A stretch of 42,410 nucleotides of DNA, taken from an uncultured virus (IMG/VR IMGVR_UViG_3300025387_000001) (Duplodnaviria > Heunggongvirae > Uroviricota > Caudoviricetes). The position numbers and the translations under genes are program-made. This document shows, one piece after another, positions 3,922-42,410 of this stretch. Each line of letters starts with the position of its first letter. Positions within the stretch are counted from its first letter, which is position 1. The notes under the pieces were generated by a model. It had not been told where the DNA came from, did no database searches, and saw only the letters and a list, made by a program, of their open reading frames with translations. The stretch is taken from the IMG/VR virus record IMGVR_UViG_3300025387_000001; one strand, given 5' to 3'.

Positions 3922-3949
3922 GGGGAGCAGAAATGCTCCCCTTTTTTTT
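3922..3949 (+). terminator. Rho-independent terminator after gp32
   Basis: GGGGAGCA-GAAA-TGCTCCCC followed by T8, at the convergent junction with the minus-strand cassette. Confidence 0.9.
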
Positions 3950-6900: not shown

Positions 6901-7322
6901 CCAAGATAACCTTCAGCTGCTTTTCTTGCTTTCAAAGCATCACTGGTAAAATTTGTTTGATTTATTTCAGTTCTTGGTGCCCCGCCTGGTGTAGTAGCAG
7001 ATGGTCTTACACCACCAGTAGAACCTTGTCTTATCTGACGGCCAGCTTGTTCTGCTTGGTCTACGGTACCGCCTCCTCTATGGGCCAGTCCAGTCAATAT
7101 GTCTTGCTGTTTTTGTTGAGATTTTTTGGATATAGCATCACGAAAACCACCAACATCGGGCATTCTTCTTTCCCAATATTTTGGAAATAGTTCAGCAAAT
7201 TGGGTAGGTGTTAATAGAGCAAGCATAGTAGCACCAGACGGGCCGTTGGCAACTTCCATTCGTTGCTTTAATGCTAGTTTCTTTAGTTTATTAAATACTG
7301 ATTTGTTAACCCTATTTGCCAT
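3948..7322 (-). CDS. Virion-associated multi-domain peptidoglycan hydrolase, tape-measure/hub position (SleB-like + Amidase_2-like + VgrG3-C-like lysozyme)
   Basis: SleB/Hydrolase_2-like ATHAEAG..ILNR..SVLNEPNQFQAV (~6900-6510). Amidase-like VVFHVTG..GYHYVIDKDGKVYQ..NALGVGF..PTQAQI..VGHGE (~6340-5930). Lysozyme-like SAKYESG..ISTGRGDKGGVSYGSHQL..AQHAFI...HYEP..YSMSVQH..RYDQE (~5270-4735). P/T/A-rich linkers; follows gp51. Confidence 0.75.
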   Translation of the reverse strand: MANRVNKSVFNKLKKLALKQRMEVANGPSGATMLALLTPTQFAELFPKYWERRMPDVGGFRDAISKKSQQKQQDILTGLAHRGGGTVDQAEQAGRQIRQGSTGGVRPSATTPGGAPRTEINQTNFTSDALKARKAAEGYLGRSMTDQEWNDLVNATHAEAGSNQTEVGMVSASILNRARLKGKSITSVLNEPNQFQAVTGTRYSPGPSKNYTQGPGSGKRSESIFGAIENITPKVSKSQTDFTSNDPAAYGKGTNPNYLKQGNVVGGSRFNTAPPDSVTSGATTPQKGGQGAATPPSSQATKGSIADNVAEGMEYAYKNTSATKNAEKFKGVVFHVTGTQSIQDQMAFQKKTGYGYHYVIDKDGKVYQMAGHDDRPNQIRGAGAAERTSRFDLTNNNALGVGFITGGGKPTQAQIDAAHRIMPGLYKTHGIPTYNEDGTPNFPVGHGEIQGKDPTRNALGPGGTPEGRVMAERFRTDDYWKDMNNRMKNLTTETPAGPSAGPAPPPPSMEDRTLGGFIKSGTGKTSEQTSPVSTSTATVVPVQTPTPVWHLSRESIVDNILEAHPSASFIYSREDLWNKITSGLDEQGVKWKKTKSGAQIEINESDPRFQKVMQDMKENGLDQNRFLKKGDKTSQADSNQTASLSSAQFLASRYGKDVKKDSMSAYSQYASIDTGTMTDANITPRLGHASAKYESGNRGVHTISTGRGDKGGVSYGSHQLSSRTGTMSEFLKSPEGADYKSKFGSHRPGSKAFNNIYSKLAKEDPYGFDDAQHAFIRRTHYEPLRAKAEKLGYNVEHPKVQEALYSMSVQHRRAANKILNHPDALSTVGMDADTQVHGLFDVRTEKFSKYKNRYDQERKDILAVAEPVQPSIETAQAQTPPGVSSPATPPSVIIPQPQAAPQPPSTMQNIQRELFPGGGQQAQAAPVQTPTAVPSTPKTTPTPVTGTPPSPTPPPTVATPPDAASTSNFLRSQGIPGASDGGSFGVNGDVSFYPMDKRDNVAAIDTKTQQPLFTARGGERIDVTPSQKVNGNMGPTSDNIRSEFDAIRQELDSLSAAGQASQIQPTTRQEPRNDMPNFIGDLVRQNKTAPFHSPSFQRAVYRSKFSEDTSRDPTNNYTFGNTNA

Positions 7323-21452: not shown

Positions 21453-24400
21453 ATGGATGCCAACACTTCCAATAGCACATCATTAACCACAAATTTTAAT
21501 GTCACACCATATTATGACGATTATGATCCTTCAGCAGGTTATTATCGAATCCTCTTTAAACCAGGTTATTCTGTTCAGGCACGCGAACTTACCCAGATGC
21601 AGACTGCTTTACAAGAGCAGATTGCTCGTTTTGGTAAAAATATTTTTAAAGATGGTACAATTGTTTTACCAGGTCAATTTACTCTCGAAACGAACGAAGG
21701 ACGTCCAGCAGGCCGCGGAATTTCGTATGTTAAAGTCAATGATCTTGATGCATCTAACAATACTGTTATTATGGATCAATGGAACACATATATCAACCAA
21801 GGTAAATCAAATGGTAACACCCGTCTAGAGGTTGTTGGATCAACATCAAATATTTATGCTAAAGTTATTCAAGTTCTAGACGGTGTTCAATCATCCCAGA
21901 ACACTAAAACCCTTTATGTTGCTTATACCTCAGGATCTAGTGCCAACGTATCATTAAAATCATTTCAGGCCGGCGAGACATTAACTGCTAATGTTAACGG
22001 AACAATCAGAACTCTTGTAGTTGCTAATACAGCAAATGCAACTGGTAAAGGTTCTCGATTCAGCATTTCATCTGGTGTTCTTTTTGCTAAAAACCATTTC
22101 GTGGCATTCCCAGATCAGGCAGTTATTATTGATCGTTATAATGCAAACCCAACAGCAAGAGTTGGTTTCTATATCACAGAAGATATTGTAACGGCATCAC
22201 AGGATTCTACACTATTGGATCCTGCACAAGAAGCATCAAACTATTCTGCTCCAGGTGCAGACCGTTTGGCATTGAATCCAACACTTGATGTTGTTCCAAT
22301 TGATGCAACACCTAGTGTTCAAGATTTCGTATCACTATTTACAATTGAAAACGGTATTGTTAAATCATATAATGCTAACACGCAATATTCATATATTAAT
22401 GATGCTATGGCCCGACGCACATTTGACAACTCCGGTGATTATGTCGTTAATGGATTAGATGTCCAACTTAAAGAACATGATGATACCGGTTCAAACTATG
22501 GACGCTATCCAAACGGAAATAATAAACTACTTTATGTAGGTGTATCACCGGGTTCTGCATACGTATCTGGTTATCAAGTTGGCATGCCGTCAACTATGGA
22601 CCTTGCTACTGAAAAAGGTCTAACAACAGCAAACGTTACATCTCAATTGACAGCAATTAATATGGGTCAATATGTTACTGTTAATGAATTTGTTGGTGGT
22701 TGGCAACTTAATAAAGGTAATACAATAGGCCTTTATGATACTGCACAAAAAAGAATAACCGGAAAAGGTTGGTCTACTGCGGCCCAAACCGGCACTCTAA
22801 TTGGTAATGCTATTATTCTATCAGTTCAATATATTTCTGGTACACCAGGTTATGATGCCAAGTATAATGTTTATCTTGCTGATATTAAGATGACAGGTTC
22901 ATATACATTTGGTCAGGTAAAAAGCCTCTATGCGGCCGCAGTTGGTGGATATAATTCCGCAATAGGTGCTGATAGCGTTTTAGACCTCAATGGTAATGCA
23001 GTTCTACAGAATGTTCCACAATCAACATTATTGTATTTTACAGGTTCTAATTATACTAGCACAGTTCGTGACTCAAATGACATACTTTCTTCACACACCA
23101 CATTTGAATTCAACGATACTCAAGGTATTTCATCCGCAGTTCAGGTTTCAACAAATGGTGTATTCACATTAAGTATTTCTCCTGGTATTGAACAGTTTCC
23201 TTATGGTACAACAACTCTTCAGGGAATTTCCACAAACGGAATTTATGTAACATTTAATAAAACTTCTGGCGGCGCAACAAGCATGGCTGTTGGACTAGGT
23301 GGTGTTACATCAACATCATCATCAAACGTTATCCTTAATGGTACAGGTACACACTTTACTAGCCTAAATGTTGGTGACAAAATCAAGTTATCCGGTAATA
23401 CATTTGTTTATCAGGTAAAATCAATTGTAAGTGATACACAACTTGTAGTTGATCAGGATTTACCATCATCAAACAATGGTAATACTCTCACCAAGATTTA
23501 CGAAGCAGGTGACCAAATTAATTTATTTGGTATTGGTGCAGCAGCCGGATCACAAAGAACAATTGCAACAACATCAACATCATTACAGTTCAATCTACAA
23601 GAAACATTCCCAAGCATCTTCTATGCTACCGTAACATATCCAGTGGCAAGAACAACTGCACTTGAAATAAAAAAGACACTTAATGCTGGTCGTTATGTTA
23701 TGATTGATTGTTCAACAGCAGGTATCAATGGTCCTTATGACCTTGGTTTCTCTGATGTTTACAAAATTAAGTCTATTAGAAAAGGTACAGGTTCATATCC
23801 TTCATCTAATACTGCCGGTTTAGACGTAACAACATCATTTGTATTTGATAATGGTCAGAGAGATACACATTATGACCATGCTACAATTAAACCAAAAGTT
23901 CTGTTGGCTTCAACAGATATGTTACTTGTTGAGTTGGATTATTTCTATCCTGACTTTACTAACCGTGGTGGTTTCTTCTCTATTGACTCCTATCCAATTC
24001 AGGATGATGATACTCTGTTTAATCCTGCAAACAACATTAGAACTGAAAACATTCCTGTATTCAAATCATCAATTACAGGTCAATCATATGATTTGAGAAA
24101 CCAGTTGGATTTCCGTGTTGTTAAAGATAGAACCGCAACTGACACAACAACACCAGGTTCGGCATCTGTTAATCCATCACCAACATCAACTTTGATTTAT
24201 CCAGCAGCAGGTATGAAATTTCCTGTACCTTCTTCAGTAGTTGAATATGATTACTATTATTATCTTGGAAGGATTGACATTGTTGTAGTAGATAAAGATA
24301 ACAGATTTCAGGTTATTAAAGGACAACCTACAACTAATCCACAGAGTCCAGTTGTTCCTCCTGGAGTTATGGCTCTTTCACAATTGACTATTTCTCCATA

Positions 24401-27400
24401 CCCATCATTGTCACCTGCATATGCTACAAAACTTAATAGATCAGAACTTGCTTCTACTCCAAAGTCTTTAGCAGTATATCGCTATACAATGAGGGATATT
24501 GGTTCTCTCAAGCAACGTATTGTTAATCTAGAATACTATACATCTTTGTCTCTATTGGAAAAAGCGGCCACTGGCACTGTAATTCAGAATGATGCTGGAT
24601 TAGATCGTTATAAAAACGGTATCTTTACCGATTCTTTCCGCGATAACTCAAATGCGGCTGATTATGATCCAGAATTTAGAATTGTATTTGATACAACAGA
24701 AAAGACAATTCGTCCAGTTTATAAAATGGAATCTATTGTCTATAACTATCTAAGTGGTACAAACGTTAAATATAATAACCCAGTTATCACGGTTGCTTAT
24801 ACTGAAGTTCTTCATCATGCGCAACAATATGTTACTATGGACATAAATGTGGAGCGCCAATCTTGGTTGTTTCTTGGTACAGTTAATTTGTTCCCATCCC
24901 AAGATATTTGGGTGGATACAACCATTCTACCTGATGAACAATTAACTAAACAATCAATTTATATTGTAACCTACGGTTCTCAAGGCACTGCCAATGAAGC
25001 AAAAGTTGCTTATGGCACAACAGCACACTATGATTTAAACAGCGGTAATACCAATTATGGCATCTATCAAGCAAATGGTTATTTTAATCAAAATACTACA
25101 GGTGGTGTTGTTGACGTTCTCAATACCACAAACTGGAATGCCTGGAATACACATGTTGTAGGATATAAAGTTTATACAGGTAGTGTTGGATCAGATGGTA
25201 ATCCATATTCTACAACATTTTCAACATACGATGCTGCCAGAAACTATGCCAACTCAATTAATCCTGTAGGCGGCGCCGGTGTTACAATTGAAACAGTCTA
25301 CAACACTGTAAGAACAGGTACTCAATATTGGGAAGCTGACAGCACTGACACGGTTCAAACCGATTACAAAGTTATTGATGTTCAGAATTATGCATACATC
25401 CGTCCTCAAACTATTGCAGTTCAATGCACCGGTATGAAACCTTTTACACGAATGTGGCCATACTTTGATAGTGTTGCGATGGCAAATAGCGCGAGGCCTT
25501 TGACCGCCAACCAGTTCTCATGGATTATTAACAACGGTCAATATGGACTTGCTGCAAATACTCTTAATAATATATCATTAGGAACTTCAACAAATCCTGC
25601 GGCAGGTATCGTTGCACTACCATCTACACTTGGTCCTTGGGCCAACTATGGTGATAGTTTGATTACTGATGCTAATGGTATTGTTACTTTCCAAATGCAA
25701 ATCACAACCGGACAATTTAGAGTTGGACAGCGCCAATGTTTAGTTATTGATAGCAGAAACTATATTGATCTAAGCAGTGCTACTAGTACCGCTGATATTC
25801 CTGTTGATGTTTCAACCGGTGGTGCCGCAGTATTTACGGCATCTGGTCAAGCAGTAACCAAACAGCGTTCTATTCTATCCACAAAAACAGTTTCTTATCA
25901 TGCAGAAGCAGTTTCCCAGAATTATAACTCTGCTGGATTTGAGTATATAGCGGCGCCCCCTCCACCTGCGCCAGCTTCACACTCTTGTACCGCATACTCA
26001 TTCTTGGCATCTGCACCAAATGGTGAAGAAGGTATCTTCCTCACCTCAGTTGATCTATTTGTATCACGTATCGGCCGTGAAGGTTTTTGGTGTGAAATTC
26101 GTGAAATGGATTCTGGACAGCAGATTACACGTAATACAGTTCCATATTCTGAAGTGTTCTTTAATAATCCTGCTAGTGTTCCAATTTCAACAAACGGCAG
26201 AGATAATCCATGTAATGTTAAGTTTGATATTCCAATCTTCTTGTATAACAATACACAATATGCGTTTGTTATTCATCCAATCAATGCTAATCCAGACCTT
26301 TATGTTTGGTGTTCTAGACTCGGTGAATTGGATATTAACGGACTTGGTACACTAAATGATCGTCGTGGTACTGGCACATTCTATCAAACAAACAATAATA
26401 CAAACTGGGATATCATCGAAGGCCTAGACTTAACCTGTAATTTCTATCGTGCAGAGTTTAACAAAAACCAAGCATCTGCTACAATTGGTAATAGACCAAT
26501 TGAAAAACTTTTTGTTAGAAATGTTGGAATTGATTTCTCTAATAATCGTGGTGATATATTCATCTCTGGTGACCATATTTCATTACCAGCATTGAATAGT
26601 GGTGCTTCTGTTGCCGTGACTGACTTTGTTGTTGGTGATCGTTCATTTGTTAATAGTGCCGCAGTAAACGTTTCTACTGGTATCGCAGGAGTCATTGCTG
26701 CCGGTAATACGGGTTATTATGTTGGCGAAGTTATACGTATTTACTCATCCAATGGTACGTTTAAAGGCCAAGCAACAAACAGTGGTATTACAAATGGCCA
26801 AGGAACACTTGATTACTATATCAACGGCAGTGATACTTCACTTGTCCAACTTACTGGTTCAGGTGGTGGATTCGTTGTTGGTGATGCTATTATCTGCTCA
26901 ACTGATTGGAGCCAGTATGGTTATTTGTATAACATCTATGCAATCTCAAACTGGAGATATTCCGCATTCCATTTTGAACCATCTGCATTGAACTTCCAAT
27001 TGACAGATATGACTTATGAAATGACTTCTGTTGGTACAACTGGTTCTAATCAATTAGTCACAAAGATTGATCCATCAACTACACAATATTTTAATACAGA
27101 AAGAGCAGTTCTTTCTAGAACAAATGAAATTAACCAACTTGCTGGTGCTAACTCACAGATTATTTCAGTCAATATGAAAACTTCATCAAATGCAGTTTCA
27201 CCATTGCTTGATCTAACAAAAACACAAACAATCATACTTGATAACATTATCAACAATGACACAACGGATGAAACATTACCAACTCATGGTGCTTTGATCA
27301 ATAAGTATATTTCAAAGACAGTAACCCTTGCTGAAGGCCAGGATGCTGAAGATATGCAAGTTATTCTATCGGCATATCGCCCACCAGGAACTGATGTTAA

Positions 27401-27965
27401 AGTTTGGATTAAAATTCTAAACGCTCAGGATGGTACATCATTCGCACAGCAACATTGGGTTGAATTGTATAAGGATGGTAATGGTGATCAAACCTACTCA
27501 TCACTTGATGATAGAAGTAACTTTAAGGAATATACATATCTTGTTCCTACAAGTTCTGTTGATAGAATAACAATCGCAAACACATTAGGATTCTCAACTG
27601 GTATCAACGTTGGATTCACACTAAACGGTCTAACATCAGGGTTCTCCGCAATGGTAGAGAGAATTGAGGGTGGTACAATCTACGTTATGTCTGATACAGG
27701 ATTTGATGCTGGCGAAACTGCCAATGTTGTAGATACAACTGGTGTCGTAGTAGGCAATACTCAAGTCCTATACACCGGGCGTACCGTGGCACTCAATGGT
27801 GATTATGCTGGTGCTGCTAATGTTATCACCTACACGACTGATGCTGGTGTAACCTATAGCACATACAAATATTTCTCCATCAAGGTAGGTCTCCTAAATG
27901 ATGGTGTAAACTCTGCCGTTGTTCCAAGAGTAGGTGATCTAAGAGCAATTGCTTTGCAAAAATAA
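21453..27965 (+). CDS. Large virion structural protein, DUF4815/VrlC-like
   Basis: NFNVTPYYDDYD...YRILFKPGYSVQARELTQMQ, APGADRL, LARRT-like MARRTFDNSGDY, RYTMRDIG.L..RI.NLEYYTSLSLLE, ends PRVGDLRAIAL. Confidence 0.85.
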   Translation: MDANTSNSTSLTTNFNVTPYYDDYDPSAGYYRILFKPGYSVQARELTQMQTALQEQIARFGKNIFKDGTIVLPGQFTLETNEGRPAGRGISYVKVNDLDASNNTVIMDQWNTYINQGKSNGNTRLEVVGSTSNIYAKVIQVLDGVQSSQNTKTLYVAYTSGSSANVSLKSFQAGETLTANVNGTIRTLVVANTANATGKGSRFSISSGVLFAKNHFVAFPDQAVIIDRYNANPTARVGFYITEDIVTASQDSTLLDPAQEASNYSAPGADRLALNPTLDVVPIDATPSVQDFVSLFTIENGIVKSYNANTQYSYINDAMARRTFDNSGDYVVNGLDVQLKEHDDTGSNYGRYPNGNNKLLYVGVSPGSAYVSGYQVGMPSTMDLATEKGLTTANVTSQLTAINMGQYVTVNEFVGGWQLNKGNTIGLYDTAQKRITGKGWSTAAQTGTLIGNAIILSVQYISGTPGYDAKYNVYLADIKMTGSYTFGQVKSLYAAAVGGYNSAIGADSVLDLNGNAVLQNVPQSTLLYFTGSNYTSTVRDSNDILSSHTTFEFNDTQGISSAVQVSTNGVFTLSISPGIEQFPYGTTTLQGISTNGIYVTFNKTSGGATSMAVGLGGVTSTSSSNVILNGTGTHFTSLNVGDKIKLSGNTFVYQVKSIVSDTQLVVDQDLPSSNNGNTLTKIYEAGDQINLFGIGAAAGSQRTIATTSTSLQFNLQETFPSIFYATVTYPVARTTALEIKKTLNAGRYVMIDCSTAGINGPYDLGFSDVYKIKSIRKGTGSYPSSNTAGLDVTTSFVFDNGQRDTHYDHATIKPKVLLASTDMLLVELDYFYPDFTNRGGFFSIDSYPIQDDDTLFNPANNIRTENIPVFKSSITGQSYDLRNQLDFRVVKDRTATDTTTPGSASVNPSPTSTLIYPAAGMKFPVPSSVVEYDYYYYLGRIDIVVVDKDNRFQVIKGQPTTNPQSPVVPPGVMALSQLTISPYPSLSPAYATKLNRSELASTPKSLAVYRYTMRDIGSLKQRIVNLEYYTSLSLLEKAATGTVIQNDAGLDRYKNGIFTDSFRDNSNAADYDPEFRIVFDTTEKTIRPVYKMESIVYNYLSGTNVKYNNPVITVAYTEVLHHAQQYVTMDINVERQSWLFLGTVNLFPSQDIWVDTTILPDEQLTKQSIYIVTYGSQGTANEAKVAYGTTAHYDLNSGNTNYGIYQANGYFNQNTTGGVVDVLNTTNWNAWNTHVVGYKVYTGSVGSDGNPYSTTFSTYDAARNYANSINPVGGAGVTIETVYNTVRTGTQYWEADSTDTVQTDYKVIDVQNYAYIRPQTIAVQCTGMKPFTRMWPYFDSVAMANSARPLTANQFSWIINNGQYGLAANTLNNISLGTSTNPAAGIVALPSTLGPWANYGDSLITDANGIVTFQMQITTGQFRVGQRQCLVIDSRNYIDLSSATSTADIPVDVSTGGAAVFTASGQAVTKQRSILSTKTVSYHAEAVSQNYNSAGFEYIAAPPPPAPASHSCTAYSFLASAPNGEEGIFLTSVDLFVSRIGREGFWCEIREMDSGQQITRNTVPYSEVFFNNPASVPISTNGRDNPCNVKFDIPIFLYNNTQYAFVIHPINANPDLYVWCSRLGELDINGLGTLNDRRGTGTFYQTNNNTNWDIIEGLDLTCNFYRAEFNKNQASATIGNRPIEKLFVRNVGIDFSNNRGDIFISGDHISLPALNSGASVAVTDFVVGDRSFVNSAAVNVSTGIAGVIAAGNTGYYVGEVIRIYSSNGTFKGQATNSGITNGQGTLDYYINGSDTSLVQLTGSGGGFVVGDAIICSTDWSQYGYLYNIYAISNWRYSAFHFEPSALNFQLTDMTYEMTSVGTTGSNQLVTKIDPSTTQYFNTERAVLSRTNEINQLAGANSQIISVNMKTSSNAVSPLLDLTKTQTIILDNIINNDTTDETLPTHGALINKYISKTVTLAEGQDAEDMQVILSAYRPPGTDVKVWIKILNAQDGTSFAQQHWVELYKDGNGDQTYSSLDDRSNFKEYTYLVPTSSVDRITIANTLGFSTGINVGFTLNGLTSGFSAMVERIEGGTIYVMSDTGFDAGETANVVDTTGVVVGNTQVLYTGRTVALNGDYAGAANVITYTTDAGVTYSTYKYFSIKVGLLNDGVNSAVVPRVGDLRAIALQK

Positions 27966-27974
27966 GAGGTTATA

Positions 27975-28751
27975 ATGGAATTTACTTTTGATATGAGTGA
28001 AATGATGACCCACATCATAAATGTGGATTTTAAAGATGGTCGTGGTAAAGTTCCTGCTCACCAACATGTAAATGGTGGAGGATGGGTAGCAGAAACGGCA
28101 CATGTTGATTCAGAATGTTATGTTGGACCTCATGCAGTGGTTTTTGGTAATGCAAGAGTTACTGAAAAGGCCGTCATAAACGATTTTGCAAAAGTATATG
28201 GTAGTGCTAGAGTTTATGGATCCGCAAGAGTTTATGGTGATGCTGAAGTATATGATACGGCACAGATATATGATAATGCCAGGGTATGTGGACATGCAAA
28301 AGTCTATGAAAATGCAAGAGTTGTAAATAATGCCTTGGTATATGATAATGCGGAAGTTTACGGTAATGCTATGGTTAGAAACAATGCAGAGGTTCTAAAT
28401 CACGGAAAAATATTTGGTAATGCTGACATATATGACTCCATAAAGATTTATGATAATTGTGTGGTATCAAGAAAACCTATTGTTTGTTTTGGATTTGACT
28501 CAAACGTATTGATTGCTGATCATCATGTGGCATTAGGTTGTGTTGTCTTTCCTCCATATTTTGTGGCCAAGACAGGTAAAAGAATGATGAGACTTATGGG
28601 TTATAGTCCAGATATCTCAGAAAAGTGGATTCAGGCCTTACAATTTGTTATTGAGTTTCATGGTTGTACCGATAGACCGGAAGACCTAGAACATTTTGAT
28701 GAACGAAAGGCCATTATGGATCTACTAACTGCCAAAGTAGGTATTAGATGA
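27975..28751 (+). CDS. Left-handed beta-helix (hexapeptide repeat) protein
   Basis: H.NGGGWVAETAHV, followed by many six-residue A.VY(G/D)N-type repeats. Confidence 0.75.
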   Translation: MEFTFDMSEMMTHIINVDFKDGRGKVPAHQHVNGGGWVAETAHVDSECYVGPHAVVFGNARVTEKAVINDFAKVYGSARVYGSARVYGDAEVYDTAQIYDNARVCGHAKVYENARVVNNALVYDNAEVYGNAMVRNNAEVLNHGKIFGNADIYDSIKIYDNCVVSRKPIVCFGFDSNVLIADHHVALGCVVFPPYFVAKTGKRMMRLMGYSPDISEKWIQALQFVIEFHGCTDRPEDLEHFDERKAIMDLLTAKVGIR

Positions 28752-35794: not shown

Positions 35795-38700
35795 GTGTCA
35801 AACAAAGAATTTATAGTCCGCAATGGGCTAGTTGTCACTGCCAATGCAAACATCACAAATCCAACACTGTTGGTTGCCGGACAAAACGTCCTAGCATCAA
35901 TCATTTCTGCCAATAACTATGCTGGTTATATGGCAAATTCCTCTAATGTCTATGTCGATACGTCTACCAATGCAGCAAACAACTATGCCGGCGTTATGGC
36001 AAACGGTGCAGGTACCATCGCCAATGCGGCCTTTGGTCATTCCAATACAACATATGCTGCGGTCAATTCTGCTTTTGGTGTTATCAATGCCTCATTTGGT
36101 TCAGCAAATACCGTAGGTGGTTATGCCAATACAGCTGGATCACTAGCTAACCAGGCAGGTGTTATTGCAAATGCAGCATTTGGTTCATCCAATACAGCAG
36201 GATCATACGCAAACACTGCCGGTGGTAATGCCAATCAGGCAGGTGTTATTGCTAACGCATCTTTTACTATTGCTAATGGTGCTTATGATCATTCCAATAA
36301 CATATCCATTTCTGCCAATAATTGGGCAAATACAGTTGGTGCCGCAGGTAATGTTTATGTAAATACAGCGACTCAAAGTGCTAATAATTATGCCGGTGTT
36401 ATGGCAAATGCATCTAATGCTTGGGCTAATACAACCGGTGTTTCTGGTAATAATTATGCTGGACTTATGGCAAATAGTTCCAATGGTTATGCTTATACCA
36501 TTGGTATCTCCGGTAATGCTTATGCTAACTTTGTAGGTGCTGCTGCCAATGCTTATTCTGGGTCAATTGGAGTAAATGCCAATGCTTATGCCAATACTGT
36601 AGCAATAGCATCCAATAATTATACAAACGTTGCAGTTGCCGCAGTAAATGCTTATGTCAACTTATCAACCTCAGCATCTAATACCTGGTCCAATACTGTT
36701 GGTGCTTCAGGTAATGCCTATGTAAATCTATCCACATCATCAGCAAATAACTATGCTGGTGCAATGGCAAATGCGGTCAATGCTTATACTGCATCATCTT
36801 ATACAGTCAAGGGAGCATATGATGTTGCTAATGCGGCCTTTGGTATCGCTAATGCTGGATATGTTTCAGGTAATGCTAACTATGTTCTAACAAATACCGT
36901 ATTTGGTATAGTCAATACTGTTTATGGAATCTCAAATGTAGCAGCATCAACCTCTGCCAATACCACATACGATCTCCAGATGCGTGGTTTCGTCAAGGCA
37001 AGTGATACATCCATTTCAGTTGGTGGATATCAAAACAACACATTTACCCTTTCCAATACAAACAACGGTTGGGCCTACTATATGAATGGCCAGCGATATG
37101 TTTGTTATGGTGCCAGAACTGCAAATCTTGCGATATCAGCACCTGCCGCTAATGGTAATTATTGGGTTAGTATTAATAACGATACAAATGGCACACTAAC
37201 AGTTTCTACAACAGCATGGAATATGAATGACCCAACCACTGTTCCAGTTGCCTTCATTCAATATAATTCTTATACTAGCCCAATGTTCCATTTGGATGAT
37301 AAAAGGTTCTTATCTTCTTCAACAACAACATTAGATTATTATTTACATACTGTTCTTGGTACAAGAGCAACAACTGTAGGTGCATTAAGCGGATATACTG
37401 TAGGTGGTACATCAAATGCTAATAATCTTATTAGTGTTAGTACCACCATATTACAAGAAGAGTCCTTAACAAAAACTCAATCAGCATTGAACGTTACAGG
37501 TGTTGCAAGTAATAACTATATCACATATTATAGATTATCTTCAGGTCCTGATGTATGGACCTGGGGTTATTCCGATATGCCATATTACCATGATGGTGGT
37601 ATCATCCAGTGGGATAATAATGGTACACTAACTACTGGTACCAATAACAAATATTATAACTCTTATCTATTGTTTACCACTTATCAAGGTGCCGGTCGTT
37701 TTATATTCGTCAACGGTAGAGGTTCATTCAACTCTTCTGCCGAGGCACAGTTGGAAGACATTACAACATGGGATTGGTCATCACTACAAGGTGTTGAATA
37801 TGTCTTTGCGTACCAACTTACATGGAAGGCACTAAACTCTCTAAACACATCAGGCAAGGCACAGCTTGCCGTTGCTCCTCGTGCGCTAAACATTACAACG
37901 GCACCATCTGCCAGTATTCCTACCAATCCTGCTCATAACTCATTAGCAGGTATTCAAGGTGGGTTACCAAACACAGAGTTCTTCCATCTAACAGCGTCCG
38001 AATATGGAACTTTACAAGCCAATATCGGAGTTGCGGCATTTAACCTTGTAAATACCGTATTTGGTGGTGCTAATGCTTTAGGTGCTCAAGATAACGTAGC
38101 ATTTAATGTTACCAATGCGGCCTTTGGTGTTGCTAACGCAGCATACAATAATGCCAATGTTGGTTTAGCAGCATCTAATGCCTATAGTAATACTGTAGGT
38201 ATTTCTGGAAATGCTTATGTAAATCTATCAACATCCGCAGCAAATGCTTATGCTATAACAATTGGTGCTTCAGGCAATGCATATGCTAACTTTGTTGGTA
38301 CGGCAGGAAATGCTTACGTAAACTTTGCTACCATTGCTGCTAACGGATATTCTAATACAATAGCAATTGCTGCAAATAACTATACAAATGCATCCACAAC
38401 ATCAGCCAATAATTATGCTGGTGCAATGGCAAATGCTGCCAATGGTTATACAGCAACATCTGCCGGATCTGCTAATAACTTTGCCGGTTCTATGGCCAAT
38501 AGTTCCAACTCTTGGGCTAACCAGGTTGCGGTATATGCCAACTCATATGCTAATACTATTGCCGTAGCAGCAAATAATTATGCCGGATTTATGGCCAATA
38601 GTTCTAATAGCTATGCAATATCAGTTGGTGACGCGGCTAATGCTAATGCACAAGTTGGTCACGCATCTGCAAACAACTATGCTGGTGTAATGGCCAATAG

Positions 38701-40792
38701 TGCTAATGCTTATGCTACTGCCACTTATGCAACACAGACCACCGTTGCTACTAATGCAACAAGTGCTAATAACTATGCTGGTGCCATGGCCAACGCAGCA
38801 AATGCTGTTGCTGCAACAAAGGTTGCATCTGTTACCGGTACATCTGGTCAAATCTTTAGTTCTGGTGGTACAACACCTACAATCAACCTAATTTCTACTG
38901 GCGTTACTTCCACCACATACGGTGGTTCTACACAGATTCCAGTAATTGCTGTTGATACTTATGGTCGTTTGACATCTGCCGCAAATGTTACTGTTCAAGG
39001 TATGGATTATCCATATGTCAATACTTCCGTTGCCGCGGCCAATAACTGGGCAAATACAAAATTATCAAATACAAGTGGTGTTGTATTTAACGGTAATATA
39101 ACATACACTGGTTATGTTACTGCTAATAACGGTCTATATTCAGGAAATAATTTCACCGGTTCATTTACAGATGGTATTGTTGTTGATTATGTAACAGGCA
39201 ATGGTCGTATCAGTGTCGGTACATCCGATGGCCTACAATTCTTTGCTGGTGGTGTTGGTACAAACATTCTTATGTCTTTGACACCATCTGGTTACATTGG
39301 TCTTGGTACAGCAAATCCTGCATATCCAGTTCAAATTATTACAGGTGGTGCTACATCAACCACACTTGCCGGTGCTATCTTTGATGCTGAAGGTACATCA
39401 AACTTTACAACTCAGTTGAATATCCGCAACGCAACAAACGGTGTTGGTTCTTCATCTGACTTGGTTGCAACTGCTGATAACGGTACAGATACTACAAACT
39501 TTATTGACGTTGGTATCAATAGTTCCGGATATAATCAGGCAGGTTGGACAATCAACGGCGCAGGTGATGGATATGTTTATACATCCGACGGTGCTCTATC
39601 AATTGGTACCGCAAACACTTCCGTAACGAACAAATACATTTCATTCTTCGTTCGTGGTACTTTAGCATCAAACGAAGCTATGCGTATTCAGGATTCTGTT
39701 GGTGGTGCCAATGTTGGTATTGGCACAACAAATCCACAGTATAAGTTGGATGTTGCTGGTACCGCAAACATAGCAAACGTATTGGTTGTCAATGGCGTAA
39801 ATGTTGTTCCATCGTTTGCTTCAACCAATAACTGGTCTAATGTTTATTCTAATACCGTTGGTGTTAATGCAAACAACTGGTCTAATGTTTATGCTAACCA
39901 GGTTGGTACTAATGCCAATACTTACGCCTCCAGTGTTGGCGTAAATGCCAATACATGGGCCAACTCTAAAGTTTATTCAATAACAAGCAATAGCACTTCA
40001 AGAGTTTGGGCAAATACTATTACAACCAGCGGTTATCAAAATGTTTATATTGACCTTGCTACATCGGGTGTTACAGCAACCACATATGGTGGTGCTTCTG
40101 CAATTCCTGTTATCACAATTGATGCCTATGGTCGTGTTACTGCGGCAGCAAACCAATCAGTTACAAGTGGTGGTGTTACTTCACTGTCACAAGGCACCGG
40201 TCTTTCATTCAGTGCCAATCCTATTACCACAACCGGTACAATTTCACTTGCGTCTGGTATTGTTACTGCACAGGCATGGACAGGTGGTATTTCTGCAATA
40301 ACAACAGATACTTATGGTCGTGTAACATCGGTTACTGCTTCTGCTGGTTATCTTACATCTGCCGTAACGTCTCTTTCACAAGGCACAGGTCTTTCATTCA
40401 GTGCCAATCCTATTACCACAACCGGTACAATTTCTATTGATTATACCACATTCAATGCTGGAACACCTGCACAGTCAATGACAGTTACCTCATTGTCCGA
40501 TTCTTCCGGTACAATTTCGTGGGATGCCTCGACATCAAGAATGGCAACTGTTACAATGTCTGGTACCGGTAGAACTATGGCAAATCCAACCAACTTAAAG
40601 GCTGGATCCTATATATTAATAATAAAGCAAGATGCTACAGGTTCAAGAACCATCACCACATGGGGTTCAGTATTCAAGTGGCCTGCCGCAGTAGCACCAG
40701 TATTATCAACAACCGCATCCACTACCGATGTATTCTCCTTCTGGTGTGATGGTACTAACTTGTATGGTACATACATTCCAGATTGTAGATAA
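35795..40792 (+). CDS. Long tail fibre protein D (GTG start; C-terminal WD..-WP..-CDG domain)
   Basis: N-terminal KEFIVRNGLVV; AN-rich stalks; VD.YGR.T.A repeats; G.IGLGT.NP and VGIGTTNP..KLDV.G knobs; C-terminal domain paralogous to fibre A. Confidence 0.8.
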   Translation: MSNKEFIVRNGLVVTANANITNPTLLVAGQNVLASIISANNYAGYMANSSNVYVDTSTNAANNYAGVMANGAGTIANAAFGHSNTTYAAVNSAFGVINASFGSANTVGGYANTAGSLANQAGVIANAAFGSSNTAGSYANTAGGNANQAGVIANASFTIANGAYDHSNNISISANNWANTVGAAGNVYVNTATQSANNYAGVMANASNAWANTTGVSGNNYAGLMANSSNGYAYTIGISGNAYANFVGAAANAYSGSIGVNANAYANTVAIASNNYTNVAVAAVNAYVNLSTSASNTWSNTVGASGNAYVNLSTSSANNYAGAMANAVNAYTASSYTVKGAYDVANAAFGIANAGYVSGNANYVLTNTVFGIVNTVYGISNVAASTSANTTYDLQMRGFVKASDTSISVGGYQNNTFTLSNTNNGWAYYMNGQRYVCYGARTANLAISAPAANGNYWVSINNDTNGTLTVSTTAWNMNDPTTVPVAFIQYNSYTSPMFHLDDKRFLSSSTTTLDYYLHTVLGTRATTVGALSGYTVGGTSNANNLISVSTTILQEESLTKTQSALNVTGVASNNYITYYRLSSGPDVWTWGYSDMPYYHDGGIIQWDNNGTLTTGTNNKYYNSYLLFTTYQGAGRFIFVNGRGSFNSSAEAQLEDITTWDWSSLQGVEYVFAYQLTWKALNSLNTSGKAQLAVAPRALNITTAPSASIPTNPAHNSLAGIQGGLPNTEFFHLTASEYGTLQANIGVAAFNLVNTVFGGANALGAQDNVAFNVTNAAFGVANAAYNNANVGLAASNAYSNTVGISGNAYVNLSTSAANAYAITIGASGNAYANFVGTAGNAYVNFATIAANGYSNTIAIAANNYTNASTTSANNYAGAMANAANGYTATSAGSANNFAGSMANSSNSWANQVAVYANSYANTIAVAANNYAGFMANSSNSYAISVGDAANANAQVGHASANNYAGVMANSANAYATATYATQTTVATNATSANNYAGAMANAANAVAATKVASVTGTSGQIFSSGGTTPTINLISTGVTSTTYGGSTQIPVIAVDTYGRLTSAANVTVQGMDYPYVNTSVAAANNWANTKLSNTSGVVFNGNITYTGYVTANNGLYSGNNFTGSFTDGIVVDYVTGNGRISVGTSDGLQFFAGGVGTNILMSLTPSGYIGLGTANPAYPVQIITGGATSTTLAGAIFDAEGTSNFTTQLNIRNATNGVGSSSDLVATADNGTDTTNFIDVGINSSGYNQAGWTINGAGDGYVYTSDGALSIGTANTSVTNKYISFFVRGTLASNEAMRIQDSVGGANVGIGTTNPQYKLDVAGTANIANVLVVNGVNVVPSFASTNNWSNVYSNTVGVNANNWSNVYANQVGTNANTYASSVGVNANTWANSKVYSITSNSTSRVWANTITTSGYQNVYIDLATSGVTATTYGGASAIPVITIDAYGRVTAAANQSVTSGGVTSLSQGTGLSFSANPITTTGTISLASGIVTAQAWTGGISAITTDTYGRVTSVTASAGYLTSAVTSLSQGTGLSFSANPITTTGTISIDYTTFNAGTPAQSMTVTSLSDSSGTISWDASTSRMATVTMSGTGRTMANPTNLKAGSYILIIKQDATGSRTITTWGSVFKWPAAVAPVLSTTASTTDVFSFWCDGTNLYGTYIPDCR
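40187..40434 (+). repeat. 59-nt direct repeat, 189-nt period
   Basis: Copies at 40187-40245 and 40376-40434 (SQGTGLSFSANPITTTGTIS) with one synonymous mismatch. Confidence 0.85.
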
Positions 40793-40822: not shown

Positions 40823-42410
40823 ATGTTTCTTGTTCCTATTTTGAGACCTACAAAGATTGTTACGCTATCAGCAGCGACTAACAATGTAAATCTCTATACG
40901 CAGGCAGGAAGTCCTGCTTATCCTCTGAATCTTCTTTGTTTCATTAATGCTAATATTGGTAGTTCATCAACAGCATCGGCAGCATTCCAAACAGGATCAT
41001 CTTGGAAAGGCGGTTCACTTCTTTATATTAAAAATGCTGCGGTTATTACTGGTGGAACCGGAGCACCAGTAATAACCGCAGGCACTATAGGAACCACTGG
41101 TACGGCAGGAGCACCAGGAACTACAGGAACTACAGGCACTATAGGAACCACTGGTACGGCAGGAGCACCAGGAACCGCAGGCACTATAGGAACCACTGGT
41201 ACGGCAGGAGCACCAGGAACCGCAGGCACTACAGGCACTATAGGAACCACTGGTACGGCAGGAGCACCAGGTTCAGGCGGCGCCGGTGGGAATGGCGCTG
41301 GCCTCAGCTCGCCAGGGCCCTGGGCGACGCCGATGAACAATGCAACATCAGGACAACCAGGAGGAACCGGTCAACCAGGAGGCACAGGTGGTACAGGTGG
41401 AACCGGTGGCCCAGGATCAGCAGCACAACCAGGAGGTGCAGGTGGAACCGGTGGCCCAGGATCAGCAGCACAACCAGGAGGTGCAGGTGGTACAGGTGGA
41501 ACCGGTGGCCCAGGATCAGCAGCACAACCAGGAGGCACAGGCGGAACCGGTGGCCTAGGAGGAACCGGTCAATCAGGAGGAATTTCTATAAATTCTGACA
41601 CCGTTTCAGGTATTAAAATTCTTTTAAATAATTTAGGAAGCATTATAGGCGGAACAGGAGGTCAAGGAGGAACCGGTGGCCCAGGAGGTCCAGGCGGAAC
41701 AGCAGGTTCAGTAGGATCTGGAGGAACCGGTGGCCCAGGAGGTCCAGGCGGAACAGCAGGTTCAGTCGGCGCCGGTGGCCCAGGAGGTCCAGGCGGAACA
41801 GCAGGTTCAGTAGGATCTGGAGGAACCGGTGGCCCAGGAGGTCCAGGCGGAACAGCAGGTCCAGGTGGCGGAGGAGGCGGCGGTGGCGCCGGCGGCTCGG
41901 GCGGCTCGATAAAAGGTTTTAATGTTATTGGCGGAGGAGGAGGAGGAGGAGCAGGAACCCCTGGAGGACCCGGTGGTACACCATATTTTCCTGGAAATCC
42001 GGGAACGGCGCCGGCACCTCATCCTGGCCAAGCAGGAACCTCAACAACAGGTGGAACAGGCGGCGCTATTGCAGTTTCTTTTGATCCCTCGCCGTTTGTG
42101 CCATCTAGTAGTAGAGGAGGAAACGGAGGAGGATTAGGACAAAACGGGCAAGCAGGACAACCATTTATACCTGGTGGTAGTCCGTGGACTTTTGCCGCAA
42201 TAGGAGGTAGCGCAGGAGCAGCAGGAACGGCCGGCGCAACAGGATCTCAAGGCGCCGCAGGACAACCAGGAGCAGCAGGAACAACAGGTGCCACAGGTGC
42301 CACAGGACAACCAGGAGCAGCAGGAACGGCCGGCGCAACAGGATCTCAAGGCGCCGCAGGACAACCAGGAGCAGCAGGAACAACAGGTGCCACAGGTGCC
42401 ACAGGACAAC
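40823..42410 (+). CDS. gp38-like glycine-rich adhesin with long Gly-X-Y insertions (3'-partial; not in ORF track)
   Basis: GAGG SD, ATG 40823, open to the window end: MFLVPILRPTKIVTLSAATNNVNLY...IGSSSTASAAFQTG..LYIKNAAVITGG-(GXY)n-...GGISINSD...ILLNNLGSIIGG-(GGX)n-GGGGGG. This matches the T-even gp38 layout. GATAAATA late-like promoter at 40788. Confidence 0.75.
   Translation, partial: MFLVPILRPTKIVTLSAATNNVNLYTQAGSPAYPLNLLCFINANIGSSSTASAAFQTGSSWKGGSLLYIKNAAVITGGTGAPVITAGTIGTTGTAGAPGTTGTTGTIGTTGTAGAPGTAGTIGTTGTAGAPGTAGTTGTIGTTGTAGAPGSGGAGGNGAGLSSPGPWATPMNNATSGQPGGTGQPGGTGGTGGTGGPGSAAQPGGAGGTGGPGSAAQPGGAGGTGGTGGPGSAAQPGGTGGTGGLGGTGQSGGISINSDTVSGIKILLNNLGSIIGGTGGQGGTGGPGGPGGTAGSVGSGGTGGPGGPGGTAGSVGAGGPGGPGGTAGSVGSGGTGGPGGPGGTAGPGGGGGGGGAGGSGGSIKGFNVIGGGGGGGAGTPGGPGGTPYFPGNPGTAPAPHPGQAGTSTTGGTGGAIAVSFDPSPFVPSSSRGGNGGGLGQNGQAGQPFIPGGSPWTFAAIGGSAGAAGTAGATGSQGAAGQPGAAGTTGATGATGQPGAAGTAGATGSQGAAGQPGAAGTTGATGATGQ
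41081..42410 (+). repeat. Four coding tandem-repeat blocks, each with 54/45/54-nt spacing
   Basis: Unit starts: 41081/41135/41180/41234; 41372/41426/41471/41525; 41675/41729/41774/41828; 42213/42267/42312/42366. Confidence 0.9.

What the first reader, a model, noticed from the sequence alone, without database searches (positions are those of the whole stretch)
40823..42410. Four unrelated repeat arrays in one adhesin share an identical 18/15/18-codon register: a length-matched four-stranded polyglycine stalk?
Seen: the gp38-like ORF has four Gly-X-Y blocks with different unit sequences (GTIGTTGTAGAPG; QPGG..GGTGGPGSAA; GGPGGPGGTAG; GAAGT..GQP). Unit starts are 41081/41135/41180/41234, 41372/41426/41471/41525, 41675/41729/41774/41828 and 42213/42267/42312/42366, so 54, 45 and 54 nt apart in every block. 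The blocks alternate with globular pieces: base segments (LYIKNAAVITGG; ISINSD..ILLNNLGSIIGG) and aromatic/Pro loop segments (SSPGPWATPM; IKGFNVI..PYFPG..FDPSPF..SPWTF). Known: T-even gp38 adhesins use packed polyglycine-II helices with hypervariable loops at the tip. Inference: the chain runs out-back-out-back, and the four strands form one antiparallel PGII rod that holds the receptor-binding loops away from the fibre. The symmetric 54/45/54 pattern fits antiparallel packing. Because the units differ, one duplication cannot explain it; four expansions must have been co-selected, making a telescoping adhesin rather than ordinary trimeric collagen.
Basis: partly seen in the sequence, partly recalled or inferred. 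Interest (0 to 1): 0.85.

Follow-up and report, generated by a model that had tools for sequence, protein, structure and literature searches.

The report
Long-stalked gp38-type phage tail-fibre adhesin
The last gene of this phage fragment encodes a relative of the gp38 host-binding tip protein in which four glycine-repeat strands have been lengthened in lock-step to about 80 residues each, most likely forming a thin single-chain stalk of about 25 nm that holds the binding loops away from the tail fibre.

Summary
ORF 40823-42409 is cut by the window end. It carries four arrays with different units but the same 54/45/54-nt register, which is a 99-nt period in 2.0-2.3 copies.

The gene lies directly behind a 1665-aa fibre gene of an uncultured T4-like phage and belongs to a divergent gp38 adhesin family. 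AlphaFold models of two homologues match S16 and PP01 gp38 (Z 13.4-13.7) and nothing else above Z 7.3.

The four arrays correspond to the four glycine helices that join the beta-helix base to the binding head. In 19 complete relatives their lengths range from 13 to 76 residues but stay equal within each protein (r 0.96-0.99). Breaks in the repeat sit at the same height in several arms.

Two sister genes show the same rule with other periods, 36 nt and 27 nt in all four arms. This points to lock-step lengthening by duplications of equal size.

A second contig supplies the missing 3' end. It gives a fourth arm of 76 residues if the array has two copies.

The rod itself is inferred, because no model coordinates, reads or oligomer test were available.

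The scan found this kind of adhesin before on other DNA. I found no description in print.

The parts
35795..40792 (+). Fibre gene (1665 aa) directly upstream. It has alanine/asparagine-rich repeats and a conserved C-terminal domain of about 100 aa.
   Evidence: ORF. It has no Pfam or PHROG family. The same C-terminal domain ends the gene just upstream of the adhesin in 17 of 17 loci examined.
40823..42409 (+). gp38-type adhesin gene: the first 529 codons, with the 3' end cut by the window end.
   Evidence: The 3' end is seen on L036: 8 further arm residues plus a 22-residue C-terminal motif and a stop.
40823..41050 (+). N-terminal part of the beta-helix base (residues 1-76).
   Evidence: 83% and 65% identical to L004 and L007. 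Its profile finds GP38-family proteins. pLDDT is 96-98 in both homologue models.
41051..41290 (+). Arm B1 (residues 77-156, 80 aa), strict Gly-X-Y, running outward. Corresponds to S16 helix 1.
41291..41350 (+). Loop 1 (residues 157-176), rich in Pro and aromatic residues, predicted at the distal end.
   Evidence: The loop is variable or absent in homologues.
41351..41578 (+). Arm B2 (residues 177-252, 76 aa), Gly-Gly-X type with three 5-residue breaks, running back to the base. Corresponds to S16 helix 2.
41579..41647 (+). Middle beta segment (residues 253-275), a further rung of the beta-helix base.
   Evidence: Conserved in all long homologues. Modelled as strands with pLDDT 96-98.
41648..41905 (+). 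Arm B3 (residues 276-361, 86 aa), about two thirds glycine and ending in a poly-Gly run, running outward. Corresponds to S16 helix 3.
41906..42205 (+). Head (residues 362-461): short glycine motifs alternating with aromatic/Pro loops. This is the presumed receptor-binding tip.
   Evidence: The only difference from the near-identical record L003 (41922 A/C, Asn/Thr) lies here.
42206..42409 (+). Arm B4 (residues 462-529, at least 68 aa seen), strict Gly-X-Y, running back to the base. Corresponds to S16 helix 10. It contains two perfect 99-nt copies up to the window end.
   Evidence: L036 overlaps the window end perfectly by 107 nt and adds 8 arm residues, giving 76 aa if the array has two copies.

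Best explanation
The ORF encodes a single-chain tail-fibre tip adhesin of the gp38 kind.

Architecture. As in Salmonella phage S16 gp38, a small beta-helix base sends out two excursions. Here the base is made of the N-terminal 76 residues, a middle beta segment and a C-terminal motif. The first excursion is arm B1, loop 1 and arm B2. The second is arm B3, the glycine-motif head with variable aromatic loops, and arm B4.

What differs. In S16 these four connecting polyglycine-II helices are only a few residues long. Here each is 76-86 residues.

Proposed structure (inferred). The four arms run out, back, out and back, side by side and in register. The glycine-richest arm, B3, has the most neighbours. 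Together they form a thin stalk of about 24-27 nm that places the receptor-binding head far from the fibre tip.

Proposed evolution (inferred). The shared 18/15/18-codon register is a record of how the stalk grew. Each arm was lengthened by tandem duplications of the same size, first 15-18 codons and then 33 codons. Selection for equal arm length retained them.

Shown versus inferred. Shown: gp38 relationship, topology by homology, equal and co-varying arm lengths, and gene-specific shared periods. Inferred: the packed rod, the monomeric state, the order of duplications and the binding role of the head.
For: Family:
- The profile of the N-terminal 78 residues finds 162 proteins at E<=0.001 among 1.84 billion.
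- I scanned 87 of the 150 listed hits against Pfam, leaving out the short fragments. 25 match PF05268 GP38 at E<=0.001, and 20 of those reach its 25-bit cut-off. P0126 also shares this family's C-terminal motif.
- The AlphaFold2 model of the 322-aa homologue (L015) has mean pLDDT 91.7, with the arms above 90 and without DSSP secondary structure.
- Foldseek against PDB gives PP01 gp38 at E 2e-11 and S16 gp38 at E 1e-7. Only three rows reach E<=0.001, all of them gp38 chains of these two entries.
- VIA-align gives Z 13.6 and 13.4 (rmsd 2.9 and 2.7 A; 152 and 156 residues aligned). The next best is Z 6.9.
- The 458-aa homologue (L021), compared with all 48,161 PDB representatives, gives 6f45_D at Z 13.7 and 9v85_C at Z 13.4. 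The next best is 7.3.

Length matching:
- In 19 complete proteins the arms span 13-76 residues. Pairwise r is 0.96-0.99. The mean within-protein SD is 2.45, against 16.7 after shuffling (0 of 10,000 shuffles as low).
- On phylogenetic contrasts r is 0.92-0.99, and 10-11 of 12 non-zero contrasts have the same sign.

Register:
- Breaks in the Gly-every-third pattern lie at the same height from the base. In L024 all four arms are broken at 17-21, 14-24, 18-21 and 17-21 residues.
- L023 and L027 have breaks in three arms at about 32-39. L018, L028 and L030 have overlapping breaks in two arms.

Strand environment:
- The glycine fraction is 0.43, 0.52, 0.70 and 0.43 for B1 to B4. B3 is the highest in 20 of 20 proteins.
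- In known bundles the glycine content rises with the number of neighbouring helices (bioRxiv 10.1101/2023.11.25.568672, passages).

Growth:
- The window gene has a 99-nt period in all four arms. L011 has 36 nt in all four. L012 has 27 (54) nt in all four at about 3.8-4.3 copies.
- The other homologues have matched arms without recent DNA repeats.

Gene position:
- The adhesin directly follows a fibre gene with a conserved C-terminal domain in 17 of 17 loci.
Against: - No model coordinates were returned, so straight side-by-side arms were never seen directly.
- The window protein itself was not folded. Both AlphaFold jobs went to homologues.
- In the long model (L021, mean pLDDT 79.1) only the 33-36 residues of each arm next to the base are confident, and the distal halves fall below 50. 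That pattern may simply follow alignment depth.
- The arm boundaries were curated with the help of homology. An uncurated, strict measure gives weaker correlations (r 0.63-0.81, n=22).
- There are exceptions. L011 has B4 of 71 against 55-63 for its other arms. L026 has B4 of 31 against 37-40. L017 (220 aa) lacks most of B3 and the head.
- A test for bulky residues at equal heights in all four arms was weak for the window gene: 1,200 of 35,937 shift combinations did as well. It was negative for L011.
- The copy number of the fourth array is unknown.
- The oligomeric state was not tested.
- I know of no solved four-strand polyglycine-II rod of this length.
Confidence: 0.62

Rival explanations
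1. The protein has the same gp38 fold, but each long arm folds back on itself several times. The result is a wider polyglycine-II lattice with many short helices, and the head stays near the base. There is no long stalk.
For: In S16 all ten helices are short and joined by tight turns. The arms of L012 and L011 have 9- and 12-residue periods, which could be read as one helix plus a turn. The models align to six- and nine-helix antifreeze bundles only weakly (Z 3.4 and 3.0).
Against: A lattice gives no reason for four arms to be equal to within a few residues over a range of 13-76, or for breaks to lie at equal distances from the base. Most homologues have no internal period in their arms. The glycine content is constant along each arm and specific to each arm.
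Confidence: 0.13
2. The protein is a homotrimeric collagen-like fibre. The Gly-X-Y blocks form inter-chain triple helices separated by globular trimeric domains, as in collagen-like phage tail fibre proteins.
For: B1 and B4 are strict Gly-X-Y. Residues 430-529 hit PHROG tail-fibre and collagen-like families at E 1e-8 to 7e-4. Pfam Collagen hits the relatives L011 (41.3 bits) and L021 (40.1 bits) above its cut-off. The nearest Atlas clusters partly carry Collagen.
Against: The family is gp38 by profile and by fold, and gp38 is described as monomeric (PMC12032242, passages). The monomer model packs all arms at pLDDT above 90. Each arm pair must return to the same base, so neighbouring strands are antiparallel, whereas collagen strands are parallel (recalled). 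B2 breaks the Gly-every-third pattern. A linear fibre does not explain the length matching.
Confidence: 0.08
3. The arms are flexible glycine-rich tethers. They let the head move but do not pack into a defined rod.
For: The distal halves of the arms have pLDDT below 50 in the long model. The sequence is of low complexity.
Against: Flexible tethers need not be equal in length or broken at equal heights. Short and proximal arm parts are modelled at pLDDT above 90. Gly at every third residue is kept along almost the whole length.
Confidence: 0.08
4. The equal array lengths in this window are an assembly artefact: tandem repeats collapsed to a similar size.
For: Three assemblies of this virus break inside the gene. 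The window ends in the perfect 99-nt repeat. G001 ends at window position 41760, which is the end of the 89-nt exact repeat in block 3. L036 starts inside block 4. No reads could be examined.
Against: The longest exact repeats in blocks 1-3 are 54, 52 and 89 nt, which is short enough for ordinary reads. Blocks 1-3 are identical in L003, and blocks 1-2 in G001. Arm matching holds in 19 other genes, most of them without DNA repeats.
Confidence: 0.04

Closest known systems
gp38 adhesins of T2/T6/S16/PP01-type Straboviridae (PDB 6F45 chain D, 9V85; Pfam PF05268)
   Same: The gene sits directly behind the distal fibre gene. The protein has a beta-helix base with two excursions made of glycine-rich polyglycine-II helices, alternating with variable loops at the far end. 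Homologue models match these structures at Z 13.4-13.7.
   Different: The four helices that join the base to the head are 76-86 residues long here, against a few residues in S16. S16's whole excursions are 18 and 77 residues. Here the first excursion is 176 residues and the second at least 254. The N-terminal attachment domain of S16 (residues 1-36) is absent. The window ORF has no direct Pfam GP38 hit.
Snow-flea and springtail antifreeze proteins (PDB 2PNE/3BOG, 7JJV)
   Same: They are single-chain bundles of antiparallel polyglycine/polyproline-II helices, with glycine on the inward faces. Alignment to the L015 model is weak: Z 3.4 with 67 of 81 residues at 2.2-2.3 A, and Z 3.0.
   Different: They are unrelated in sequence and function. 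By the sizes of the solved chains (81 and 126 residues for six and nine helices), their helices are roughly ten residues long, not 76-86.
Collagen-like phage tail-fibre and bacterial collagen-like proteins (Pfam PF01391)
   Same: They also have long Gly-X-Y runs. Pfam labels the relatives L011 and L021 as Collagen.
   Different: Collagen is a parallel three-chain helix (recalled). Here the strands of one chain must run antiparallel between a common base and head, their lengths are matched four-fold, and the fold of the rest of the protein is gp38.

Membership tests
gp38 adhesin (Pfam PF05268; S16/PP01 type) | Detectable sequence relationship to GP38-family proteins | tested here: met
   The relationship is indirect. 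The window ORF has no Pfam hit at E<=0.01. The profile of its N-terminal domain finds proteins of which 20 of 87 scanned reach the PF05268 cut-off; 25 of 87 match at E<=0.001.
gp38 adhesin (Pfam PF05268; S16/PP01 type) | Fold: beta-helix base with two excursions of polyglycine-II helices | tested here: met
   Tested on two homologues (L015 and L021), not on the window protein itself. 6f45_D gives Z 13.4 and 13.7; 9v85 gives Z 13.6 and 13.4. The next best matches are Z 6.9 and 7.3.
gp38 adhesin (Pfam PF05268; S16/PP01 type) | Gene directly downstream of the distal long-tail-fibre gene | tested here: met
   The adhesin starts 31 nt after the 1665-aa fibre ORF. The same arrangement is seen in 17 of 17 loci. 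The fibre is not recognisably gp37.
gp38 adhesin (Pfam PF05268; S16/PP01 type) | N-terminal attachment domain (helices with conserved Trp) that docks on the gp37 trimer | tested here: not met
   Model residue 1 aligns to S16 residue 37, and the ORF begins at the beta-helix. Attachment must therefore work differently. I file this as a divergent subfamily, not as S16-type gp38 proper.
gp38 adhesin (Pfam PF05268; S16/PP01 type) | Monomer capping a trimeric fibre | not testable with these tools
Collagen triple helix (Pfam PF01391) | Uninterrupted Gly-X-Y | tested here: inconclusive
   Met in B1 and B4. B2 has three 5-residue breaks, and B3 is of Gly-Gly-X type. The window ORF has no Pfam Collagen hit, but L011 and L021 do.
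Collagen triple helix (Pfam PF01391) | Parallel homotrimer | not testable with these tools
   No oligomer prediction was available.
Polyglycine/polyproline-II helix bundles (antifreeze-protein type) | Antiparallel packed PGII helices in one chain | tested here: inconclusive
   Matches are weak: 3bog and 2pne at Z 3.4, 7jjv at Z 3.0. No coordinates were available to inspect the packing.

The most novel reading that the evidence does not exclude
A single polypeptide builds a four-stranded antiparallel polyglycine-II rod tens of nanometres long. Its length is tuned in evolution by lock-step duplications of equal size in all four strands. This would be a way of making a protein fibre that is neither collagen, coiled coil nor beta-helix, and it would let a phage set the reach of its receptor-binding head.
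Probability: 0.55. Interest if true: 0.85.

Novelty: new variant of a known kind. Interest (0 to 1): 0.72.

Why it matters
Known gp38 tips are compact caps. A version on a stalk of adjustable length would add a new variable to phage host recognition, namely reach through capsules, S-layers or sheaths.

It would also explain why many "collagen-like" phage genes are mislabelled.

For protein science it would be a natural, length-programmable polyglycine-II rod made from one chain. The three sister genes with periods of 99, 36 and 27 nt show compensatory length evolution between distant segments of a single protein, which can be tested directly by deleting units from one arm or from all four.

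Tried and rejected
- A word-index protein search with residues 1-90 found nothing.
- tblastn of the L004 homologue against GenBank phages found no match.
- A PDB sequence search gave only chance hits.
- L008 and L009 from the first locus scan are unrelated high-GC collagen-like proteins and were dropped.
- A 23-nt head-specific pattern found nothing in the viral or metagenome contigs. The block-4 pattern found nothing in the metagenome contigs and one viral contig, L036.
Read support, copy-number variants, trimer versus monomer and fibre binding therefore stay untested.
- The window's own assembly is not held.
- The similarity test between units of different blocks used a codon shuffle, which destroys the Gly periodicity. 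Its "0 of 500" results are not meaningful evidence of common descent.
- The test for bulky residues at equal heights was weak or negative.
- A homologue of the 2OG-Fe(II) oxygenase lies within the DNA held downstream in 7 of 22 loci with a complete adhesin, and just beyond it in two more. That is too weak to link it to the adhesin.
- Literature searches found no paper describing elongated gp38 arms or a gp38 stalk. Subscription journals and supplements were not covered.
Full report
**Observation.** The ORF at 40823-42409 (+) is open at its 3' end and gives 529 residues. Tandem Repeats Finder describes each block as one 99-nt period (54+45):
- 41074-41271: 2.0 copies, 96% matches
- 41357-41580: 2.3 copies, 84%
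- 41647-41865: 2.2 copies, 92%
- 42213-42410: 2.0 copies, 100%

Copies within a block differ at 8, 12, 5 and 0 of 99 positions, mostly at the array ends. The units of different blocks reach only 0.57-0.69 identity at their best cyclic alignment. Blocks 1 and 4 are strict Gly-X-Y. Block 3 keeps Gly at every third residue throughout. Block 2 has three 5-residue breaks. The block-4 starts are one base out of frame, and block 4 is cut by the window end.

**Context.** The window is part of an uncultured T4-like myovirus. It encodes gp59, gp32 and baseplate proteins gp5, gp25, gp6, gp8 and gp53. Its gp6 is about 30% identical to that of cyanomyoviruses. The ORF starts 31 nt after a 1665-aa fibre-like ORF (35795-40792). 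G+C is 0.59 in the gene against about 0.37 elsewhere.

**Relatives.** Two scans of IMG/VR gave 26 loci that encode the N-terminal domain. Twenty-two hold complete ORFs of 220-526 aa and 4 are cut. All share one architecture: an N-terminal domain of about 76 residues, arm B1, loop 1, arm B2, a beta segment of about 23 residues, arm B3 ending in poly-Gly, a head of short glycine motifs and aromatic loops, arm B4, and a conserved C-terminal motif of about 20 residues. In 17 of 17 loci examined the gene just upstream ends with the same domain of about 100 residues.

**Family.**
- The window ORF has no Pfam hit. It has only weak PHROG hits to collagen-like tail fibres over residues 430-529.
- A profile of the N-terminal 78 residues, run against 1.84 billion proteins, found 162 hits at E<=0.001. 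I scanned 87 of the 150 listed hits against Pfam, leaving out the shorter fragments. Twenty-five match PF05268 GP38 at E<=0.001, and 20 of these reach its cut-off.
- Ordinary gp38-like proteins of about 250 aa show the same order of parts, with arms of about 10 residues. One of them, P0126, carries this family's C-terminal motif.
- AlphaFold2 on the 322-aa homologue (34-row alignment) gave mean pLDDT 91.7, with the arms above 90 and no DSSP secondary structure.
- Foldseek found PP01 gp38 (E 2e-11) and S16 gp38 (E 1e-7). Only three rows reach E<=0.001, all of them gp38 chains of these two entries.
- VIA-align gave Z 13.6 and 13.4, with the next best at 6.9.
- The 458-aa homologue, compared with 48,161 PDB representatives, again gave only the two gp38 entries above Z 8 (13.7 and 13.4).
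- Model residue 1 aligns to S16 residue 37, so the S16 attachment domain is missing.

**Topology.** The authors' account of S16 gp38 describes a five-ring beta-helix. Two of its turns, of 18 and 77 residues, extend along the fibre axis to form ten polyglycine-II helices. The first turn carries helices 1-2 and the second carries helices 3-10. Variable loops sit at the far end, and one gp38 caps a gp37 trimer (PMC6851490, passages; PMC12032242, passages). Mapped on this plan, B1, B2, B3 and B4 are helices 1, 2, 3 and 10, which are the four that connect base and head. In the window protein the first excursion is 176 residues and the second at least 254.

**Length matching.** I defined the arms by anchors: the end of the N-terminal domain, loop 1, the beta segment, the end of the first poly-Gly run, the loop after the conserved Gly-Asn-Leu-Gly motif, and the C-terminal motif. 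Examples from the 19 complete proteins (B1/B2/B3/B4):

| Protein | Arm lengths |
|---|---|
| L023, L027 | 52/52/52/52 |
| L024 | 70/70/76/70 |
| L021 | 61/61/65/61 |
| L035 | 40/38/40/37 |
| L015 | 22/19/25/26 |
| P0015 | 16/16/16/16 |
| P0026 | 13/13/15/13 |

- Pairwise r is 0.96-0.99. The mean within-protein SD is 2.45, against 16.7 after shuffling columns (0 of 10,000 shuffles as low).
- Contrasts on a tree of the conserved parts give r 0.92-0.99, with 10-11 of 12 non-zero contrasts in the same direction. That tree is short and weakly supported.
- Rows left out: L013 and L016 (identical to L012 and L015); L020 and L032 (near-identical to L019 and L028, with the same lengths); and L017 (220 aa), which lacks most of B3 and the head and whose two excursions are 54 and about 47 residues. 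P0049, P0064 and the proteins of about 250 aa were not curated.
- An uncurated strict measure, in which runs are never merged across breaks, gives r 0.63-0.81 (n=22). Its outliers are the proteins with breaks.
- Exceptions in the curated table: L011 has B4 of 71 against 55-63, and L026 has B4 of 31 against 37-40.

**Register and environment.**
- Where the Gly-every-third pattern is broken inside arms, the breaks lie at the same distance from the base. In L024 all four arms are broken at 17-21, 14-24, 18-21 and 17-21 residues, and the breaks hold Leu or Phe in three of the four arms. L023 and L027 have breaks in three arms at about 32-39. L018, L028 and L030 have overlapping breaks in two arms. 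These distances are measured from sequence anchors and do not depend on the arm-length curation.
- The glycine fraction is 0.43, 0.52, 0.70 and 0.43 for B1 to B4, and B3 is highest in 20 of 20 proteins. In solved bundles the glycine content rises with the number of neighbouring helices, and helix 3 of S16 is central (bioRxiv 10.1101/2023.11.25.568672 and PMC6851490, passages).
- In the long model each arm is confident only for the 33-36 residues next to the base (77-110, 171-205, 230-262, 400-435), and the rest falls below 50. That is compatible with in-register pairing. It may also only reflect where the alignment is deep.

**How the arrays arose.** The window gene, L011 and L012 form one clade, with N-terminal domains 88% and 84% identical to the window's. 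Each has its own period, shared by all four arms:
- Window gene: 99 nt.
- L011: 36 nt, at 2.6, 3.2, 4.7 and 3.9 copies.
- L012: 27 nt (54 in B1), at about 3.8-4.3 copies.

The other 15 genes examined have matched arms without recent DNA repeats. The simplest reading is that a duplication of d residues in one arm is tolerated or favoured only once the other three gain d residues. The easiest way to gain exactly d residues is a tandem duplication of that size. This is inference. Neither the order of events nor any intermediate was observed.

**Assembly and the missing end.**
- L003 differs from the window at 1 of 7,254 positions (41922 A/C, Asn/Thr in a head loop) and has identical blocks 1-3. 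G001 is identical over 2,438 nt.
- The longest exact repeats are 54, 52, 89 and at least 99 nt in blocks 1 to 4.
- G001 ends at window position 41760, the end of the 89-nt repeat. The window ends in the perfect 99-nt repeat.
- L036, a 4,885-nt IMG/VR contig, starts inside block 4. It overlaps the window end perfectly by 107 nt (or, one period on, by 8 nt). It continues with 8 more arm residues, a 22-residue C-terminal motif like that of L011, and a stop.
- With two copies B4 is 76 residues, beside 80, 76 and 86 for the other arms. With three copies it would be 109.
- Reads could not be examined.

**Size.** At a recalled rise of about 0.31 nm per residue for polyproline-II-type helices, arms of 76-86 residues give about 24-27 nm.

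**Rivals.**
- Zig-zag lattice (0.13), flexible tethers (0.08) and an assembly artefact (0.04) each fail to explain the four-fold length matching and the equal-height breaks across many genes.
- A trimeric collagen fibre (0.08) fits the Gly-X-Y runs and the Collagen labels on L011 and L021. It does not fit the gp38 fold, the antiparallel path or the confident monomer model.
- None of these is excluded by direct structural data.

**Novelty.** Four full-text searches found papers on compact gp38 tips and on polyproline-II bundles, but none on elongated gp38 arms. Subscription journals and supplements were not covered. The scan's own notes record the same reading on other genomes (e1-5644171, e1-5644159, e1-5744034, e1-6349482). 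I reached my reading before seeing them, and they are not independent evidence. This window adds four things:
- the shared internal register and its counterparts in two sister genes
- the equal-height breaks
- the arm-specific glycine content
- the 3' end on L036

Noticed in passing
window 41922: The only difference between the window and the near-identical record L003 over 7,254 nt is A/C at 41922. It changes Asn to Thr in the first aromatic loop of the adhesin head.
   Followed up: partly
L036 2214-2846 (-); L004 7913-8533 (+): A 2OG-Fe(II) oxygenase (PF13640, 51 bits) is the next gene after the adhesin on L036 and the second after it on L004. Homologues lie within the downstream DNA held in 7 of 22 loci with a complete adhesin, and just beyond it in two more. 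This Pfam family includes prolyl hydroxylases (recalled), so hydroxylation of the Pro-rich arms is a lead only.
   Followed up: partly
window 35795-40792: The 1665-aa fibre ORF matches no Pfam or PHROG family. It is built of Ala/Asn-rich repeats. Its last 100 or so residues are conserved upstream of the adhesin in 17 of 17 loci, while the fibre length varies from fewer than 200 to 1670 codons. This domain is probably the docking site for an adhesin that lacks the S16-type attachment domain.
   Followed up: partly
window 3948-7322 (-): A 1124-aa protein combines an Amidase_2 domain (E 3.5e-14) with a T6SS VgrG3-like C-terminal domain (E 7e-40).
   Followed up: no
window 21453-27965 (+): A 2170-aa structural protein of PHROG 358 / DUF4815 lies between the baseplate genes and the fibre genes. 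It is followed by a 258-aa beta-solenoid (YdcK/hexapeptide-like) protein at 27975-28751.
   Followed up: no
L007 7395-10209: Downstream of the short adhesin of L007 lie three ORFs of 271-342 aa, each with a Ser-Gly-Gly-x-Asp-Ser motif near its N-terminus. This looks like a PP-loop ATPase motif (recalled). They have no Pfam hit at E<=0.001.
   Followed up: partly
protein P0004: The top hit of the N-terminal profile is a 2359-aa protein matched in 41 stretches to profile positions 20-59. It carries DUF1771. It is probably a repeat or compositional match and was not examined.
   Followed up: no
proteins P0027, P0045, P0039, P0043: Some relatives carry additional non-glycine domains of about 200 aa after the C-terminal motif (P0027, P0045) or inserted in the first excursion (P0039, P0043). 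The scaffold evidently tolerates grafted domains.
   Followed up: no
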